Part shown: one piece after another, positions 1-25,757 of the stretch | How positions within the stretch are numbered: the first letter of the stretch is position 1 | Layout of the letters: every line of letters starts with the position of its first letter | Origin: Candidatus Gottesmanbacteria bacterium | GTDB taxonomy: Bacteria; Patescibacteriota; Microgenomatia; UBA10105; UBA927 | Length of the DNA: 63,688 nucleotides | NCBI GenBank assembly: GCA_023245355.1 | Contig: JAHFKN010000007.1 | Location: 1-63,688 of the forward strand | Reading direction: 5' to 3' | Notes under the pieces: model-generated | What the model was told of the DNA's origin: nothing | What the model saw: only the letters and a program-made list of their open reading frames with translations | The model's database searches: none | Position numbers and translations under genes: made by a program

Positions 1-1
1 G

Positions 2-73
2 CTCCCCCGGTAGGATTCGAACCTACAACCTTCTTCTTAACAGGAAGCCGCGCTACCATTGCGCCACAGGGGA
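2..73 (-). tRNA. tRNA-Asn (anticodon GTT)
   Basis: The reverse complement folds into a 72-nt cloverleaf: acceptor TCCCCTG/CGGGGGA, D stem GCGC/GCGC, anticodon loop CT-GTT-AA, T arm GTAGG-TTCGAAT-CCTAC, discriminator G. There is a G27.A43 mismatch. Any CCA end would run off the window edge. Confidence 0.95.
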
Positions 74-191
74 ATGTTAAGAACGAGAGTATTATACCAT
101 GATTTTCGGCTTGGTTACCTTGTTATCCGTCGTACATGCCTGTTATGTCATTGGAGCGTATACTGACGACAGAGCATTGTATTTATCCGTT

Positions 192-989
192 ATGTTTACC
201 CAGCCTGTTTTTTATGCCCTGCTTGCGACCATATTTACCTGGGGGGTGACTGCCGTGGGAGCTGCGGGAGTATTCGTCTTCCGGCAGGCCAACCAGAAAG
301 TGCTCGACGGCATGCTGGGATTCACGGCCGGCGTCATGATTGCAGCAAGCTTTTGGTCTCTGCTCGCGCCTTCTATCGCATTATCCCAACATGCAGGTAT
401 TCTTCCGTGGATCCCGCCGCTTATCGGGTTTTTGTCCGGAGGGGCATTTTTGTGGATAGTCGATAAGGCGCTGCCGCACCTGCATCTGTATGCGCCTGCC
501 TCACAAAAAGAGGGGGTAAAAACCCGCTGGCATAAAACCATGCTGCTGTTTCTGGCCATCACCCTTCATAATATTCCGGAGGGTCTGGCGATAGGCGTGG
601 CATTCGGGGCAGCTTCGCTTGCAACATCTGGTGCGACACTGGCAAACGCCATAGCGCTAGCTATCGGCATCGGGATACAGAATTTCCCCGAAGGGTTTGC
701 CGTGTCCATGCCGTTTCGGCGTGAGGGTATGAGCAGGCTCAAAAGTTTCCTGTACGGTCAGGCATCGGCGTTGGTCGAACCCATAGCTGCAGTTATCGGG
801 GCTGCAGGGGTGCTGTATATGCAGGGGTTGTTGCCGTATGCGCTTGCGTTTGCGGCCGGGGCCATGATTTACGTGTCTGTCGAAGAAATTATCCCGGAAT
901 CCCAGGCACACGGAACGGATAGCGCAACCATCGGAGCCATGATCGGTTTTGCCATCATGATGACGCTGGATGTCGCGTTTGGGGTGTAA
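192..989 (+). CDS. zupT: ZIP family (ZupT/GufA) divalent metal transporter
   Basis: Motifs LHNIPEGLAIGVAFG and IGIQNFPEGFAVS, with about 8 hydrophobic segments. The ORF is open from 99; the start at 192 (MFTQPV) was chosen by typical family length. Confidence 0.88.
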   Translation: MFTQPVFYALLATIFTWGVTAVGAAGVFVFRQANQKVLDGMLGFTAGVMIAASFWSLLAPSIALSQHAGILPWIPPLIGFLSGGAFLWIVDKALPHLHLYAPASQKEGVKTRWHKTMLLFLAITLHNIPEGLAIGVAFGAASLATSGATLANAIALAIGIGIQNFPEGFAVSMPFRREGMSRLKSFLYGQASALVEPIAAVIGAAGVLYMQGLLPYALAFAAGAMIYVSVEEIIPESQAHGTDSATIGAMIGFAIMMTLDVAFGV

Positions 990-1026
990 GTATCGCGGCT
1001 ATGATATATACTTTTATGTACGCGCT

Positions 1027-1332
1027 ATGAGTAAGAATCCTCTCATCAATGCATTTGCCGCCGCTTGCTATATTGTGCTGATTGCTTCCGTGATGTTTTG
1101 GGGCACCAAAATGGCTCCGAAATCCGATACGTTTCTGGCACCTATTGCCGTGATCTCACTCTTCACGCTGTCTGCCGCTGTCATGGGATATCTGTTTTGC
1201 TACACGCCGCTTATGATGTATTTTGATGGCAAGAAAAAACAGGCGGTCACGCTGTTTCTTCAGACGGTTTTGGTGTTCGGCGTATTTACGGCGGTTGCCC
1301 TCGGGCTTTTGTTTTCCGGCGCACGGATATAA
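1027..1332 (+). CDS. Small hypothetical membrane protein (3 predicted TM segments)
   Basis: ORF MSKNPLINAFAA... has three hydrophobic stretches and follows the ZIP gene on the same strand. The start is trimmed from the track's 970, which overlaps the ZIP gene. Confidence 0.7.
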   Translation: MSKNPLINAFAAACYIVLIASVMFWGTKMAPKSDTFLAPIAVISLFTLSAAVMGYLFCYTPLMMYFDGKKKQAVTLFLQTVLVFGVFTAVALGLLFSGARI

Positions 1333-1432
1333 GTATGACTTCCCATAACGTCAATCAGGTATTGTGTTGTTGTACCTCTCATCTTCCTGGGGAGGGTATG
1401 TCATAACGGTGTAACGAAAGCAGCATAAAGAC

Positions 1433-1459
1433 AGAGCCTCCCTATCGGGAGGTTTTTTT
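1433..1459 (+). terminator. Intrinsic terminator (possibly regulated)
   Basis: CCTCCC-TATC-GGGAGG hairpin followed by 7 T. Confidence 0.8.
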
Positions 1460-1491
1460 GTGGTTTCCTGAAAGGAGGTGAGTTGCTATAT

Positions 1492-1725
1492 ATGTCACTA
1501 CAAGATGAGATAGAGCAGGCGGCAGATCAATACGGAGGCGTGGGGACAGCAAATAACAAAGAAAAAAGCGCCGTGCGTGCGATATTGGAGCCGGTATTCG
1601 GTCAGCGGTCAAACACGCGGCTTAGGACGCTTCGCGACGGATTGTGGGCACGAAGCAGGCGCGAAGGGGACAGATATTCGGATCTGGCAGAGATGCTGGA
1701 TACGTTAATCCGGAGAAAGAAATAG
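1492..1725 (+). CDS. Small hypothetical protein (77 aa)
   Basis: Strong SD AAAGGAGGTGA at 1471-1481, 10 nt before ATG 1492. The product is charged and probably helical, with no recognised motif. Confidence 0.7.
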   Translation: MSLQDEIEQAADQYGGVGTANNKEKSAVRAILEPVFGQRSNTRLRTLRDGLWARSRREGDRYSDLAEMLDTLIRRKK

Positions 1726-1735
1726 CGCAGGCGGG

Positions 1736-2182
1736 TTAAACCCACCGCCTCGTTTTCTTTTTGTATGATTTGTACGATGTACCGAACGCTTTCGTCAGCA
1801 TGCTTTCTTCATATGGGATGAAGAACGTGTTGACGAAAGCGAGGAAGATAATGGGGCCGACAAACGCCAGCACGTTGGCAAACAGCAAAACAGTGCCGAC
1901 AGAAATCATGAGAAATCCTAAATAAATGGGATTCCTGCTGTAACGGTACGGTCCGTGCATGACGAGTTTGGATGGCTTGTGCCGCGGATGCAGCGTCGTT
2001 TTGTGTTTCCTGAGGAGTTTTATGGCCCACAGGACGATGCCGATTCCCAACGTAATCAGGATAATGCCCAAAAAACTGATGGTGACATCGGTAAACTGAA
2101 TTGCCGGAAATGCCGTGCTGACCAGATACGAAAGCGCAATGGCGATAATAAGAAGAACAGGGGGTGAAATATACATATACAT
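1736..2182 (-). CDS. Isoprenylcysteine carboxyl methyltransferase / PEMT family membrane methyltransferase
   Basis: Motifs LVMHGPYRYSRNPIYLG and EE-x2-L-x3-FG-x2-Y-x2-Y-x5-RW. The start is uncertain (2194/2182/2176). Confidence 0.85.
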   Translation of the reverse strand: MYMYISPPVLLIIAIALSYLVSTAFPAIQFTDVTISFLGIILITLGIGIVLWAIKLLRKHKTTLHPRHKPSKLVMHGPYRYSRNPIYLGFLMISVGTVLLFANVLAFVGPIIFLAFVNTFFIPYEESMLTKAFGTSYKSYKKKTRRWV

Positions 2183-2248
2183 ACATGATGACATATCAGG
2201 CTCTTGTCACTCAAGACAGCAAAAGTTCGGTATAATGAGTATGAATTC

Positions 2249-3412
2249 ATGAAAAAGAAGCGTGCCGTCCGCGTAGATTTTCTGTTCCTTCTTTGGATCA
2301 GCGTCATTGCCGCTATTTCCTTTTTTGCCGTGCAGCAGGTGCGGCGCCTTGTCGGTGTGTTGCCGAAGGAGAACTTCAGACAAAAAGTTACCGGGAGTAT
2401 TTCGCGGCAGGGCGATTGGTTTATACGAAACCAAACTCCGGCCGGGGATTTTGTCTATGAGCGATATGCTGCAACCGGAGAAATAAAAGAGGGAAACAGT
2501 ATCGTGCGGCAGGCGGGAGCGCTGTATGGATTGGCACAGCTGTATGCGTATACCAAAAACCCCGAAACGAAAACGACATTAGAAAAAGGGTTTGATTATT
2601 TCCGGGGACTGACGGCTACACCGAGTGCGAGTGCCAATGTCATAACGCATAACGGACAAACCCTCACCAATACGACAGCGCTTCTGGTATTGGGGCTTGT
2701 GGAATATCTGGAAGCAGACAGCCGGAATAAGACGACGGAAAATCTGGAATACCTGGTGCGGCTTTCCAACTACTTAGCTTCCACACAGACTTCAACCGGC
2801 GCGTATATCAACGAGTACGTGCCCAAGCCCGTAGAATCCGATTACAACAACGGGGAAACCATGTATGCACTGATCCGGAGTTACAACGTGACACAAAAGC
2901 AGGAGTATCTCCTGTCCGTCAAACGCATGGCGTCGTATGCCATGGAGTATTACGGCCCGCAGGGATTTAATTCTTCATTTTTCAGCTGGGGTATGGCGGG
3001 ATTTTCCTACTTATACGCAGCAGAGCCGGATGAAAAATATTGGATTTTTTTGAAGCAGTATGCGGATAAATATATGACGAGCCGCGGAGTCGTCTACGAG
3101 CAGTTTCTCAATCACACATCCGAAACGGCCATAACGCCCGGTGCATCCGTGTTCCTCGAAGGAGTAAATCACATCGCCTGGGTGGCAAAAGACAAGGATC
3201 CGGTCTTATACCGCACGCTCAAACGTCATGTAGAGCGCGTATTGGATTTTTTGCTTACGTATGAACTTGACGGCCCTTACGGCAAATATGCATCCGGCAA
3301 GGATATGGTGCGGGGCGCCATTTGTTCACAGAAAGAATGCGAAACAACGCGGATTGATTTTCTGCAGCACAATATCTCCGCCATTCTGCTTTACGTTAAG
3401 TTTTTGATATAG
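2249..3412 (+). CDS. Membrane-anchored hypothetical protein, probable (alpha/alpha) toroid fold
   Basis: N-terminal KKKR plus a TM helix. Motifs GDFVYE..., VRQAGALYGL, NGETMYAL and RIDFLQHNISA resemble six-hairpin glycosidase / prenyltransferase-like toroid proteins (from memory of the family). Confidence 0.6.
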   Translation: MKKKRAVRVDFLFLLWISVIAAISFFAVQQVRRLVGVLPKENFRQKVTGSISRQGDWFIRNQTPAGDFVYERYAATGEIKEGNSIVRQAGALYGLAQLYAYTKNPETKTTLEKGFDYFRGLTATPSASANVITHNGQTLTNTTALLVLGLVEYLEADSRNKTTENLEYLVRLSNYLASTQTSTGAYINEYVPKPVESDYNNGETMYALIRSYNVTQKQEYLLSVKRMASYAMEYYGPQGFNSSFFSWGMAGFSYLYAAEPDEKYWIFLKQYADKYMTSRGVVYEQFLNHTSETAITPGASVFLEGVNHIAWVAKDKDPVLYRTLKRHVERVLDFLLTYELDGPYGKYASGKDMVRGAICSQKECETTRIDFLQHNISAILLYVKFLI

Positions 3413-25100: not shown

Positions 25101-25667
25101 ATGCCAATCTACACCAAAACAGGCGACACCGGCACGACATCCCTGTTCGGGGGTAAGCGGGTATTAAAGTGCGAAGAACTTGTCGATGTGTACGGTTCCA
25201 TAGACGAACTGAATTCGTGGATAGGGAAAGTCGCAAGCGACATCGAGTCACCCGACGTACACGTGTTTCTTGCTGCTATTCAGTCTGATTTATTTTCAAT
25301 CGGAAGTCATCTGGCAGGATGGGTTACCGGGCTTCATGAACTGCCCAAGCGTGTCAAAGAAATGGAAGAACGGATAGATATTTTAGACGATAAATTGCCG
25401 AAGCTTTCCAATTTTATCCTCCCCGGAGGAACCAGACTTGCCTCTGATATCCATTTGGCCAGAGCAGTATGCCGCAGAGTTGAACGGCAGACCGTAGCGT
25501 TGGGTCAGAAACAGAAGATCGACACGAGGATTTTCGTGTATCTGAACCGCCTGTCCGATCTGCTGTTTATGCTGGCACGGTTTATCAATCATGAAGCCGG
25601 AATTGTAGAAGTGACATGGTCAGGTATTGACCGGAACGCTCACAAAGAGTACAAAGAGACGAAGTAA
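25101..25667 (+). CDS. pduO: PduO-type ATP:cob(I)alamin adenosyltransferase
   Basis: IYTKTGDTGTTSL, YGSIDELNS, FILPGG, ARAVCRRVER, YLNRLSDLLF. Confidence 0.95.
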   Translation: MPIYTKTGDTGTTSLFGGKRVLKCEELVDVYGSIDELNSWIGKVASDIESPDVHVFLAAIQSDLFSIGSHLAGWVTGLHELPKRVKEMEERIDILDDKLPKLSNFILPGGTRLASDIHLARAVCRRVERQTVALGQKQKIDTRIFVYLNRLSDLLFMLARFINHEAGIVEVTWSGIDRNAHKEYKETK

Positions 25668-25757
25668 GGACACGAGGAACGCTGTGGAACTCAGCGACTG
25701 TGCCGCAACGGTAAAGTCCGGAACTCCCCCTTACAGTATCCCGAGCAGGAGGATTTT

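What the first reader, a model, noticed from the sequence alone, without database searches (positions are those of the whole stretch)
1334..1725. Possible three-state attenuator / riboswitch-like leader controlling an unknown 77-aa ORF
Seen in sequence: segment A (CCTCTC, 1375-80) can pair with B (GGGAGG, 1390-95). B can instead pair perfectly with C (CCTCCC, 1437-42). C otherwise pairs with D (GGGAGG, 1447-52) to form a terminator with 7 T. A-B sits inside an outer helix TATGAC(1334-39)/GTCATA(1400-05). Only 11 nt separate the T-run from a strong SD (AAAGGAGGTGA), too little for a new promoter, so the ORF at 1492 appears to need read-through. C could also sequester the SD. Established: this anti-antiterminator/antiterminator/terminator layout is the classic riboswitch expression platform. 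Inference: an unrecognised aptamer or protein-binding leader. It lies just downstream of a ZIP metal transporter and shares only fragments (GGGGAG, GTCATAAC, AGAC) with the Mn-sensing yybP-ykoY motif, not its structure.
Basis: partly seen in the sequence, partly recalled or inferred. Interest (0 to 1): 0.62.

Follow-up and report, generated by a model that had tools for sequence, protein, structure and literature searches.

The report
Cysteine-sensing leader-peptide transcription attenuator
The hairpins are real. The sensor is most likely a ribosome reading a 23-codon mini-gene with three cysteine codons in a row, not a riboswitch. This is a known type of amino-acid switch, found here in an ultra-small (CPR) bacterium that lacks cysteine synthase, in front of a gene of unknown function.

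Summary

- **Conservation.** All 16 distinct leaders in front of homologs of the 77-aa gene keep this uORF. The triple Cys (TGT x3) is invariant, indels before it are in frame, and the stop comes 10 codons after it (9 in one). A terminator follows 41-51 nt later.
- **Pairing.** Among all leaders found, the terminator stem has five different sequences, and B is complementary to C in each.
- **Modelling.** A ribosome stalled at the Cys codons leaves B free to pair with C (antiterminator). A ribosome at the stop codon covers B, so C:D terminates.
- **Link to cysteine.** The same design precedes cysteine synthase/CBS-family genes and PIG-L deacetylases in other Microgenomates families.

This is therefore a trp-type ribosome-mediated attenuator that reads Cys-tRNA charging. 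It is a new member of a known kind.

Its target is an orphan four-helix protein, and no genome of the genus has a cysK/cysM match. No expression data could be obtained.

The parts
1027..1332 (+). Upstream 101-aa membrane-protein gene. Its stop (TAA 1330-1332) lies 2 nt before the uORF start. It is a conserved neighbour of the 77-aa gene.
   Evidence: ORF list. Only weak DUF7942 and DUF1129 hits. It is 66% identical to the 101-aa gene that follows the 77-aa homolog in L043. Where this gene is upstream, the gap from its stop to the uORF ATG is 2-4 nt.
1335..1406 (+). Leader-peptide uORF of 23 codons, MTSHNVNQVLCCCTSHLPGEGMS*, with no SD of its own.
   Evidence: Sequence. The ATG is invariant. 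The distance from ATG to the first Cys codon is 24, 27, 30 or 33 nt, so indels are in frame. The stop is TAA, TAG or TGA at a fixed distance, in all 16 orthologous leaders.
1365..1373 (+). Three consecutive Cys codons (TGT TGT TGT), the proposed sensing codons.
   Evidence: Invariant in all 16 leaders, and always TGT, although long ORFs of the genome use TGT and TGC 1317:1338. The genome has a single tRNA-Cys(GCA), so TGT is read by wobble.
1334..1339 (+). 5' strand of the outer helix P0 (TATGAC). It covers the uORF start codon.
   Evidence: Pairs with 1400-1405. 87.5% of cells are paired over 16 sequences, and two pairs show compensatory changes.
1400..1405 (+). 3' strand of the outer helix P0 (GTCATA). 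It covers the last sense codon and part of the stop codon.
   Evidence: One example: the stop UGA in L040 pairs with UCA before its AUG, where the other leaders have UAG paired with CUA.
1375..1380 (+). Segment A (CCTCTC), directly 3' of the Cys codons. It can pair with B. It would be covered by a ribosome stalled at the Cys codons.
   Evidence: The A:B helix is 86% paired against 49-57% in slid controls for the whole structure, but has no compensatory change on both sides. The ACCUC motif directly after the Cys codons is kept even in leaders of other families.
1388..1396 (+). Segment B (TGGGGAGGG), the antiterminator strand. It lies 8-16 nt before the stop codon, inside the footprint of a terminating ribosome.
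   Evidence: B:C duplex of -13.5 to -15 kcal/mol. B is complementary to the cognate C in all five terminator stem types.
1437..1442 (+). Segment C (CCTCCC), the 5' arm of the terminator. It pairs alternatively with B.
1447..1452 (+). Segment D (GGGAGG), the 3' arm of the terminator.
   Evidence: The C:D helix is 95% paired, with three covarying pairs.
1453..1459 (+). U-run (seven T) of the intrinsic terminator.
   Evidence: This is one of only 29 strong hairpin+T6 motifs in the genome.
1471..1481 (+). Shine-Dalgarno site AAAGGAGGTGA of the 77-aa gene, starting 11 nt after the U-run.
   Evidence: Conserved in the orthologs.
1492..1725 (+). The regulated gene: a 77-aa orphan protein with four predicted helices and no Cys residue.
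   Evidence: No Pfam or NCBIfam hit. About 10 clusters in 5.8 billion proteins and 3 clusters among 1.8 billion representatives. AlphaFold2 pLDDT 81, four helices. No fold match in the PDB.
1730..1762 (.). Imperfect hairpin plus T-rich tail between the 77-aa gene and the convergent PEMT/ICMT gene. Probably the end of the transcription unit.
   Evidence: Sequence. The scan lists the hairpin on the minus strand. The convergent gene at 1736-2194 matches PF04191.

Best explanation
This is a ribosome-mediated (trp-type) transcription attenuator that senses charged tRNA-Cys.

**How transcription and translation reach it.** Transcription enters from the upstream ZIP and membrane-protein genes. Ribosomes finishing the membrane-protein gene (stop 1330-32) restart 2 nt later on a 23-codon leader ORF (1335-1406).

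**When Cys-tRNA is plentiful.** The ribosome runs to the stop codon at 1404. Its footprint covers segment B (1388-96). C then pairs with D, and RNA polymerase terminates at the U-run (1453-59).

**When Cys-tRNA is scarce.** The ribosome stalls on the three wobble-read UGU codons (1365-73). It covers A (1375-80) but not B. B pairs with C as soon as C is made, the terminator cannot form, and transcription continues into the 77-aa gene.

**Shown here.** The uORF is conserved and keeps its frame. The Cys codons are invariant. The spacing from the Cys codons to the stop is fixed. B:C complementarity holds in five stem types. The same design precedes cysteine-pathway genes in related families.

**Inferred.**
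- that the uORF is translated;
- that ribosomes stall when cysteine is short;
- that the hairpin terminates transcription in this organism;
- that A:B acts as a pause hairpin or anti-antiterminator;
- what the 77-aa protein does. It is probably part of a cysteine-shortage response together with the 101-aa membrane protein.
For: **1. The uORF behaves like a translated ORF.**
- The ATG and the triple TGT are invariant in 16 distinct leaders.
- Distances from ATG to the first Cys codon are 24, 27, 30 and 33 nt.
- The distance from the last Cys codon to the stop is 30 nt in 15 leaders and 27 nt in one.
- Three different stop codons are used.

**2. The leader travels with the 77-aa gene, not with the upstream gene.**
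- It is present in G009, L041, L043, L044 and L045, which have no membrane gene upstream.
- In G009, L041, L043 and L044 a sigma-70-like promoter sits just before the uORF.
- It persists in front of distant homologs, which match the family profile only at E about 3e-12.

**3. B matches its own C in every stem type.**
- Five stem types occur: CCUCCC, CCCCG(C/U), GUCCCC, CUCCCA and GCUCCC.
- Per sequence, P ranges from below 0.0003 to 0.037 against genome windows.
- A permutation test of cognate against swapped partners gives p = 0.016.

**4. State modelling on 23 leaders.** In the transcript cut just before D, the fraction of the C arm paired to B is:

| Ribosome position | Fraction paired |
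|---|---|
| stalled at the Cys codons | 0.98 |
| at the stop codon | 0.08 |

With a ribosome at the stop codon, C:D forms to 0.95.

**5. Sister leaders found with a covariance model.** They precede:
- six CysK/CBS-family genes (PF00291; TIGR01136 at 345.9 bits against a cut-off of 344.15);
- three PIG-L deacetylases;
- one RidA fusion.

**6. Codon choice.** There is a single tRNA-Cys(GCA), so UGU is read by wobble. All Cys codons in the 16 leaders are UGU, although the genome uses the two codons equally.

**7. Uniqueness in this genome.** It is the only CCC-uORF followed by a terminator in the genome.
Against:
- The regulated gene has no known link to cysteine.
- The uORF has no SD. Its translation rests on restart after the upstream stop, or on a start at or near the 5' end in sister loci.
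- At equilibrium without a ribosome, B:C is already favoured (0.76 on average, and fully in the window's own leader). The anti-antiterminator role of A is therefore weak, and untranslated RNA might read through.
- Fixed-column covariation for B:C is no better than shuffles, because the pairing register shifts between stem types.
- A:B has no change on both sides.
- The single-sequence fold is not exceptional (z = -1.33).
- Canonical terminators are rare in this genome: 5 of 572 ends of long ORFs. How well intrinsic termination works here is therefore untested.
- All sequences come from one class, and many from one genus, so they are not independent.
Confidence: 0.8

Rival explanations
1. Riboswitch or protein-binding leader. 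The region from 1334 to about 1405 folds into an aptamer or protein-binding site whose occupancy decides between B:C and C:D. The short ORF is incidental.
For: - The outer helix P0 closes a domain that contains A:B.
- UGUUGUUGUACCUC is conserved at the nucleotide level, including synonymous positions. That could mark a binding site.
Against: - No Rfam family reaches its threshold.
- The 5' half of the supposed domain varies in sequence but always keeps the reading frame, with in-frame indels and no stops.
- The stop codon changes identity but not position.
- The invariant element is exactly three Cys codons, and sister leaders precede cysteine synthase-family genes.
- In several sister loci the promoter leaves no room for RNA 5' of the start codon.
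Confidence: 0.04
2. Ordinary operon terminator. C:D simply ends the ZIP and membrane-protein transcript, the 77-aa gene is expressed on its own, and the uORF and B are chance features.
For: - In the window the hairpin lies 105 nt after the end of the upstream gene.
- A/T-rich stretches that loosely resemble a -10 element occur after the uORF stop.
Against: - The uORF and terminator are kept in loci with no upstream gene.
- Only 11 nt separate the U-run from the SD, and no promoter-like site was found in 1-3000.
- A start site upstream of C would give an RNA that carries the terminator but not B.
- B:C complementarity follows five different stem sequences.
Confidence: 0.04
3. Nascent-peptide or chemical sensor. 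The Cys-Cys-Cys peptide, and not tRNA charging, stalls the ribosome in response to a metal, an oxidant or a thiol-reactive compound, and this gives the same antitermination.
For: - The window's genus has no cysteine synthase-family match, so there is no biosynthetic pathway to feed back on.
- In the window, a metal transporter gene is in the same transcription unit.
- The C-terminal GEGMS is fairly well conserved.
Against: - The conserved C-terminal residues coincide with B and P0 and change together with their RNA partners (G005 and L040).
- The N-terminal residues are not conserved.
- Sister leaders precede cysteine synthase-family genes, as expected for sensing of cysteine supply.
- ZIP is not a conserved neighbour.
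Confidence: 0.06
4. Translational attenuation of the mycobacterial type. The hairpin and U-run do not terminate. Instead, stalled ribosomes change RNA pairing that masks the SD of the 77-aa gene.
For: - In type-1 leaders, C (CCUCCC) is complementary to the SD GGAGG.
- Canonical terminators are rare at gene ends in this genome.
- A translational mechanism has been proven for poly-Cys short ORFs in mycobacteria (bioRxiv 10.1101/834739).
Against: - Five leaders have C = CCCCG(C/U), which cannot pair with GGAGG.
- Every leader keeps a G+C-rich 6-7 bp stem followed at once by 6-8 U.
- The distance from the U-run to the SD ranges from about 4 to more than 100 nt, so no fixed masking helix exists.
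Confidence: 0.05

Closest known systems
Classical leader-peptide transcription attenuators of enterobacterial amino-acid operons (trpL, hisL, leuL, thrL, pheL, ilv leaders)
   Same: - A short translated leader ORF with tandem codons for the sensed amino acid.
- Four segments with mutually exclusive 1:2, 2:3 and 3:4 pairings.
- An intrinsic terminator just before the regulated gene.
- A ribosome stalled at the regulatory codons frees segment 2, and a ribosome at the stop codon covers it.
   Different: - The sensed amino acid is cysteine.
- The uORF has no SD. It is coupled to the stop of an upstream gene, or it starts at or near the 5' end of the mRNA in sister loci.
- The switch sits inside an operon.
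- The regulated gene is an orphan, not a biosynthetic gene.
- A:B is no stronger than B:C.
- The organism is a CPR bacterium.
uORFC-8-2 motif upstream of cysS in Rhodobacterales (RNA Biol 2021, PMC8632094)
   Same: A predicted ribosome-mediated attenuator with tandem Cys codons in a uORF and an intrinsic terminator. It rests on comparative analysis only.
   Different: - It has two Cys codons, mostly UGC, at positions 14-15 inside the first stem.
- It is found only before cysS and only in alpha-proteobacteria.
- No model of it was available, so homology could not be tested.
Mycobacterial polycysteine leaderless short ORFs, the 'Cys ribulon' (Canestrari et al., bioRxiv 10.1101/834739), and the earlier actinobacterial Cys leader peptides without terminators (BMC Microbiol 2005, PMC1262725)
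   Same: - Runs of Cys codons in a very short ORF without an SD act as the cysteine sensor through ribosome stalling.
- Several unrelated operons share the device.
- Sister loci here look leaderless, as those do.
   Different: - The mycobacterial elements work at the level of translation, by unmasking the ribosome-binding site, and have no terminator.
- Here a canonical hairpin plus U-run follows every uORF.
- Pairing of C with the SD is not conserved here.
Rfam Phe_leader (RF01859), the only near-hit in Rfam
   Same: The general layout of leader, nested hairpins and a CCUCCC/GGGAGG terminator.
   Different: The score is 27.4 bits against a cut-off of 55. The alignment is confident only over the terminator, and the uORF has no run of Phe codons.

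Membership tests
Ribosome-mediated (leader-peptide) transcription attenuator | A short ORF upstream of the regulated gene that is translated | tested here: inconclusive
   Comparative signs of translation are strong: an invariant ATG, in-frame indels, no internal stops, and three stop-codon types at a fixed position in 16 leaders. No ribosome or peptide data could be obtained.
Ribosome-mediated (leader-peptide) transcription attenuator | Tandem codons for the sensed amino acid inside the leader ORF | tested here: met
   TGT TGT TGT at 1365-1373. Invariant in all 16 orthologous leaders, and at least three consecutive Cys codons in 11 sister leaders.
Ribosome-mediated (leader-peptide) transcription attenuator | An intrinsic terminator between the leader ORF and the regulated gene | tested here: met
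   A 6-bp G+C stem, 4-nt loop and seven U at 1437-1459. Present in every leader, 41-51 nt after the uORF stop.
Ribosome-mediated (leader-peptide) transcription attenuator | An antiterminator strand that overlaps the 3' part of the leader ORF and competes for the terminator's 5' arm | tested here: met
   B:C duplexes of -10 to -17 kcal/mol in all leaders, and cognate matching in five stem types. Under modelled ribosome footprints, pairing is 0.98 when stalled and 0.08 at the stop codon.
Ribosome-mediated (leader-peptide) transcription attenuator | The regulated genes belong to the metabolism of the sensed amino acid | tested here: inconclusive
   Not met in the window, where the gene is an orphan 77-aa protein. 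Met for sister leaders, which precede six CysK/CBS-family genes.
Ribosome-mediated (leader-peptide) transcription attenuator | Read-through rises when the charged tRNA is scarce | not testable with these tools
   This needs expression data or an assay.
Rfam Phe_leader (RF01859) | Covariance-model score at or above the gathering threshold of 55 bits | tested here: not met
   27.4 bits, E = 0.034. The posterior probability is high only over the terminator.
Any Rfam riboswitch, including yybP-ykoY | A match to a curated aptamer model | tested here: not met
   No riboswitch family matches in 900-1900, even at E up to 10. At gathering thresholds the only riboswitch hit in the window is AdoCbl-II at 25664-25734.
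Mycobacterial polycysteine leaderless short-ORF attenuators | The short ORF starts at the 5' end of the mRNA (leaderless) | tested here: not met
   In the window the uORF follows an upstream gene by 2 nt. Sister loci have a -10-like hexamer 6-8 nt before the start codon, but no transcription start was mapped.
Mycobacterial polycysteine leaderless short-ORF attenuators | Control by masking the downstream ribosome-binding site, without a terminator | tested here: not met
   A terminator is present in every leader. Complementarity between C and the SD is absent in the five CCCCG(C/U) leaders.

The most novel reading that the evidence does not exclude
The 77-aa four-helix protein and its constant neighbour, the 101-aa membrane protein, form a so far unknown cysteine-shortage response. 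It could serve cysteine or thiol acquisition or sparing.

The genus that carries it has no cysK/cysM match and so presumably must import cysteine. The attenuator sits between the two partner genes and is translationally coupled to the first. Cys-tRNA charging would therefore set the ratio of the two proteins.

A further twist is possible. B (GGAGG-like) and C (CCUCC-like) resemble the Shine-Dalgarno and anti-Shine-Dalgarno sequences. The 16S rRNA tail of a terminating ribosome might therefore help to hold B.
Probability: 0.25. Interest if true: 0.6.

Novelty: new member of a known kind. Interest (0 to 1): 0.45.

Why it matters
- **Gene regulation in CPR bacteria.** Little is known about how these bacteria regulate genes, and my literature searches found no attenuator reported in them. 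Here a clear regulatory device recurs across several Microgenomates families.
- **A functional clue for orphan genes.** The device flags the genes it controls as responsive to cysteine supply. That gives the first clue to two orphan genes, the 77-aa protein and the 101-aa membrane protein, in a genus with no cysK/cysM match.
- **A variation on the classical design.** A trp-type attenuator can apparently run without a Shine-Dalgarno site, either from a start codon placed 6-8 nt after a -10-like element or by restarting after an upstream gene.
- **Annotation.** Such leaders should be annotated as leader-peptide attenuators, not as riboswitch candidates.

Tried and rejected
- **Rfam.** A scan at gathering thresholds and at E up to 10 found no family. 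Phe_leader was rejected as a terminator-driven sub-threshold hit.
- **Single-sequence folding.** It does not differ from shuffles.
- **RNAalifold.** On MAFFT alignments it gave only weak consensus helices.
- **Fixed-register covariation for B:C.** It was no better than shuffles because the register shifts between stem types. I replaced it with duplex-energy tests.
- **Function of the 77-aa protein.** Nothing came from Pfam, NCBIfam, a 5.8-billion-protein search, a profile search of 1.8 billion representatives, an AlphaFold2 model or Foldseek against the PDB.
- **Phylum-wide search.** The covariance model found nothing outside the class at E <= 2e-4.
- **Nearest genera with cysK/CBS genes.** Those genes carry no Cys uORF.
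- **Other poly-Cys uORFs in the same genome.** None has a terminator.
- **ZIP or manganese link.** Rejected, because ZIP is not a conserved neighbour.
- **Promoter between the uORF and the 77-aa gene.** No consensus match was found. A start site upstream of C would lack B in any case.

Full report
**Observation.**
- TATGAC 1334-39 and GTCATA 1400-05
- A, CCTCTC 1375-80
- B, GGGAGG 1390-95
- C, CCTCCC 1437-42
- D, GGGAGG 1447-52
- seven T at 1453-59
- SD AAAGGAGGTGA 1471-81
- ATG 1492 and stop 1723-25

The consensus scan lists C:D plus the T-run as a terminator. On this one sequence the fold as a whole is not better than shuffles (z = -1.33). The case therefore rests on comparison with related sequences.

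**What was missed.**
A and B lie inside an ORF that runs from ATG 1335 to TAA 1404-06. It reads MTSHNVNQVLCCCTSHLPGEGMS*, with three consecutive Cys codons (TGT TGT TGT, 1365-73). Its ATG follows the stop codon (1330-32) of the upstream 101-aa membrane-protein gene by 2 nt.

**Organism.**
The window is contig 8 of a 1.27-Mb, 12-contig genome. Relatives assigned to the same genus by the genome search carry record titles naming Candidatus Gottesmanbacteria, which belongs to the Patescibacteria/Microgenomates group.

**Orthologous leaders.**
- Homologs of the 77-aa protein are rare: about 10 clusters in 5.8 billion proteins and 3 clusters among 1.8 billion representatives.
- I collected the DNA upstream of all of them: 13 distinct leaders in the genus and 3 in front of distant homologs.

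All 16 have the same anatomy:

| Feature | Finding |
|---|---|
| Start codon | invariant ATG |
| Codons before the Cys run | 8-11 variable codons; ATG to first Cys = 24, 27, 30 or 33 nt, so every indel is in frame |
| Cys run | invariant TGT TGT TGT |
| Last Cys codon to stop | 10 codons (9 in one leader) |
| Stop codon | TAA, TAG or TGA at a fixed position |
| Terminator | hairpin plus 6-8 U, 41-51 nt after the stop in the 13 genus leaders |
| Downstream | SD and the 77-aa gene |

- The genome uses TGT and TGC equally (1317:1338) and has a single tRNA-Cys(GCA). The invariant TGT is therefore the wobble-read codon.
- In G009, L041, L043, L044 and L045 there is no membrane gene upstream.
- In G009, L041, L043 and L044 a sigma-70-like promoter (for example TTGTGC-17-TATACT or TTGAAT-17-TATACT) lies just before the uORF.
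- The uORF and terminator therefore belong to the 77-aa gene, not to the end of the upstream operon.

**Alternative pairings.**
- Across all leaders the terminator stem has five different sequences: CCUCCC/GGGAGG, CCCCG(C/U)/(G/A)CGGGG, GUCCCC/GGGGAC, CUCCCA/UGGGAG and GCUCCC/GGGAGC.
- In each, the 3' part of the uORF holds a matching G-rich B segment.
- Against same-length windows of the genome, the B:C duplex has P from below 0.0003 to 0.037 per sequence.
- Cognate B:C pairs beat swapped pairs (permutation p = 0.016), and so do cognate A:B pairs (p = 0.02). These tests do not correct for relatedness.
- On a fixed alignment, P0 + A:B + C:D are 89% paired against 49-57% when the partners are slid. 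Compensatory changes occur in P0 and C:D but not in A:B.
- B:C in one fixed register is no better than shuffles, because the register shifts between stem types.
- C cannot pair with the SD in the five CCCCG(C/U) leaders, so SD masking is not a conserved feature.

**State modelling.**
I used standard ribosome footprints, from 12 nt before to 15 nt after the first P-site base, on 23 leaders. The first two rows use the transcript cut just before D.

| Modelled state | Result |
|---|---|
| Ribosome waiting at the Cys codons | C arm paired to B: 0.98 |
| Ribosome at the stop codon | C arm paired to B: 0.08 |
| Full-length leader, ribosome at the stop codon | C:D formed: 0.95 |

The fixed 30-nt distance from the Cys run to the stop puts B at the 5' edge of the terminating ribosome.

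There is one caveat. Without any ribosome, B:C is already favoured at equilibrium (0.76 on average, and fully in the window). The role of A as an anti-antiterminator is therefore the weakest part of the model, and any such role would have to be kinetic.

**Link to cysteine.**
- A covariance model built from the 16 leaders found further true members with a poly-Cys uORF and terminator: in another genome of the genus, in another genus of the family and in four other families of the class.
- It found none in 400 genomes sampled from the rest of the phylum.
- Their downstream genes are six cysteine synthase/CBS-family PLP enzymes (PF00291; TIGR01136 at 345.9 bits against a cut-off of 344.15 for one), three PIG-L/LmbE-type deacetylases, one RidA fusion and one 484-aa protein without a Pfam match.
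- Most of these uORFs start 6-8 nt after a -10-like hexamer, which suggests leaderless mRNAs. This is read from the sequence and was not mapped.
- In L043 the order is uORF, terminator, 77-aa homolog, 101-aa membrane protein (66% identical to the window's), then an inositol-monophosphatase-family gene. The 77-aa and 101-aa genes are thus partners in either order.

**Context in the window's genome.**
- It has no CysK/CysM or RidA homolog by tblastn.
- TIGR01136 hits none of the 18 genomes of the genus, but does hit other genera of the family.
- It holds only this one CCC-uORF with a terminator.
- Strong hairpin+T6 motifs are rare: 29 in the genome, and 5 of 572 ends of long ORFs. A chance terminator here is therefore unlikely. 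How well intrinsic termination works in this organism is also untested.

**The regulated gene.**
The protein has 77 aa, no Cys residue in any homolog and four predicted helices (pLDDT 81). It has no PDB fold match (best E = 0.93) and no family assignment. Its function is unknown. Its regulation suggests a role when cysteine is short.

**Comparison with what is known.**
- It works like the classical trp, his, leu, thr and phe attenuators.
- Cys-codon versions have been predicted before cysS in Rhodobacterales (uORFC-8-2, PMC8632094).
- Leader peptides with Cys runs but no terminators were noted in Actinobacteria (PMC1262725) and shown to act on translation in mycobacteria (bioRxiv 10.1101/834739).
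- My literature searches found no report of such an element in CPR bacteria.
- Earlier unchecked notes of this scan describe similar Cys leaders in several phyla, including one before cysK in a CPR genome. My class-wide search found such cysK leaders independently.
- The verdict is a new member of a known kind.

**Limits.**
- No expression data are available.
- All sequences are from one class.
- Translation of the uORF, stalling and termination are inferred.

Noticed in passing
window 25664-25734 (+): AdoCbl-II (cobalamin) riboswitch aptamer above the Rfam gathering score (39.4 bits against 36.5).
   Followed up: no
own genome, contig C5 about 72950-73320 (outside the window): A second leader-like unit. 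It runs TTGACA-18-TATAAT promoter, 22-codon uORF MRNQAQCHFMTLINLRTVGGVV*, an internal CCUCCGA/UCGGAGG hairpin, a CCCCGC/GCGGGG terminator with seven U, and then a 58-aa orphan ORF. It resembles the Cys leader but has only one Cys codon, and model R1 did not detect it.
   Followed up: partly
window 1-73 (-) and contig C9 204618-204690: tRNA-Asn(GUU) begins the window, and a second tRNA-Asn copy ends contig C9. The order tRNA-Asn, (membrane gene), Cys leader, 77-aa gene is syntenic in all relatives seen. The conserved TATAAT-like stretch next to the tRNA looks like the tRNA's own promoter on the other strand.
   Followed up: no
L045 about 1381-1490, L043 about 1215-1310 and L041 (between terminator and SD): In three relatives, 100-136 nt have been inserted between the attenuator terminator and the SD. 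The inserts carry repeated small hairpins (CCCGC-N3-GCGGG three times in L045) or a duplicated ACTGTTGACGAA motif (L041). They may be small mobile or REP-like elements.
   Followed up: no
whole genome of the window and its genus: No cysteine synthase (TIGR01136) match in any of the 18 genomes of the genus, although other genera of the family have one. Hairpin-plus-T-run terminators are very rare at gene ends (5 of 572 long ORFs).
   Followed up: partly
L096 (G329), L053 (G013), L077 and L085: Cys-uORF attenuators also precede a 484-aa protein without any Pfam match and three PIG-L/LmbE-type deacetylases. That is the enzyme family of the mycothiol and bacillithiol deacetylases, which hints at a cysteine-containing small thiol pathway in Microgenomates. 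In L053 a GNAT acetyltransferase gene is the convergent neighbour.
   Followed up: partly
L078, L077, L055 and L086 (sister leaders): Leaders in front of cysK/CBS-family, PIG-L and RidA genes often carry one or more extra Cys codons near the uORF stop, for example ...GRYVC*. The window's type (...GEGMS*) lacks this.
   Followed up: no
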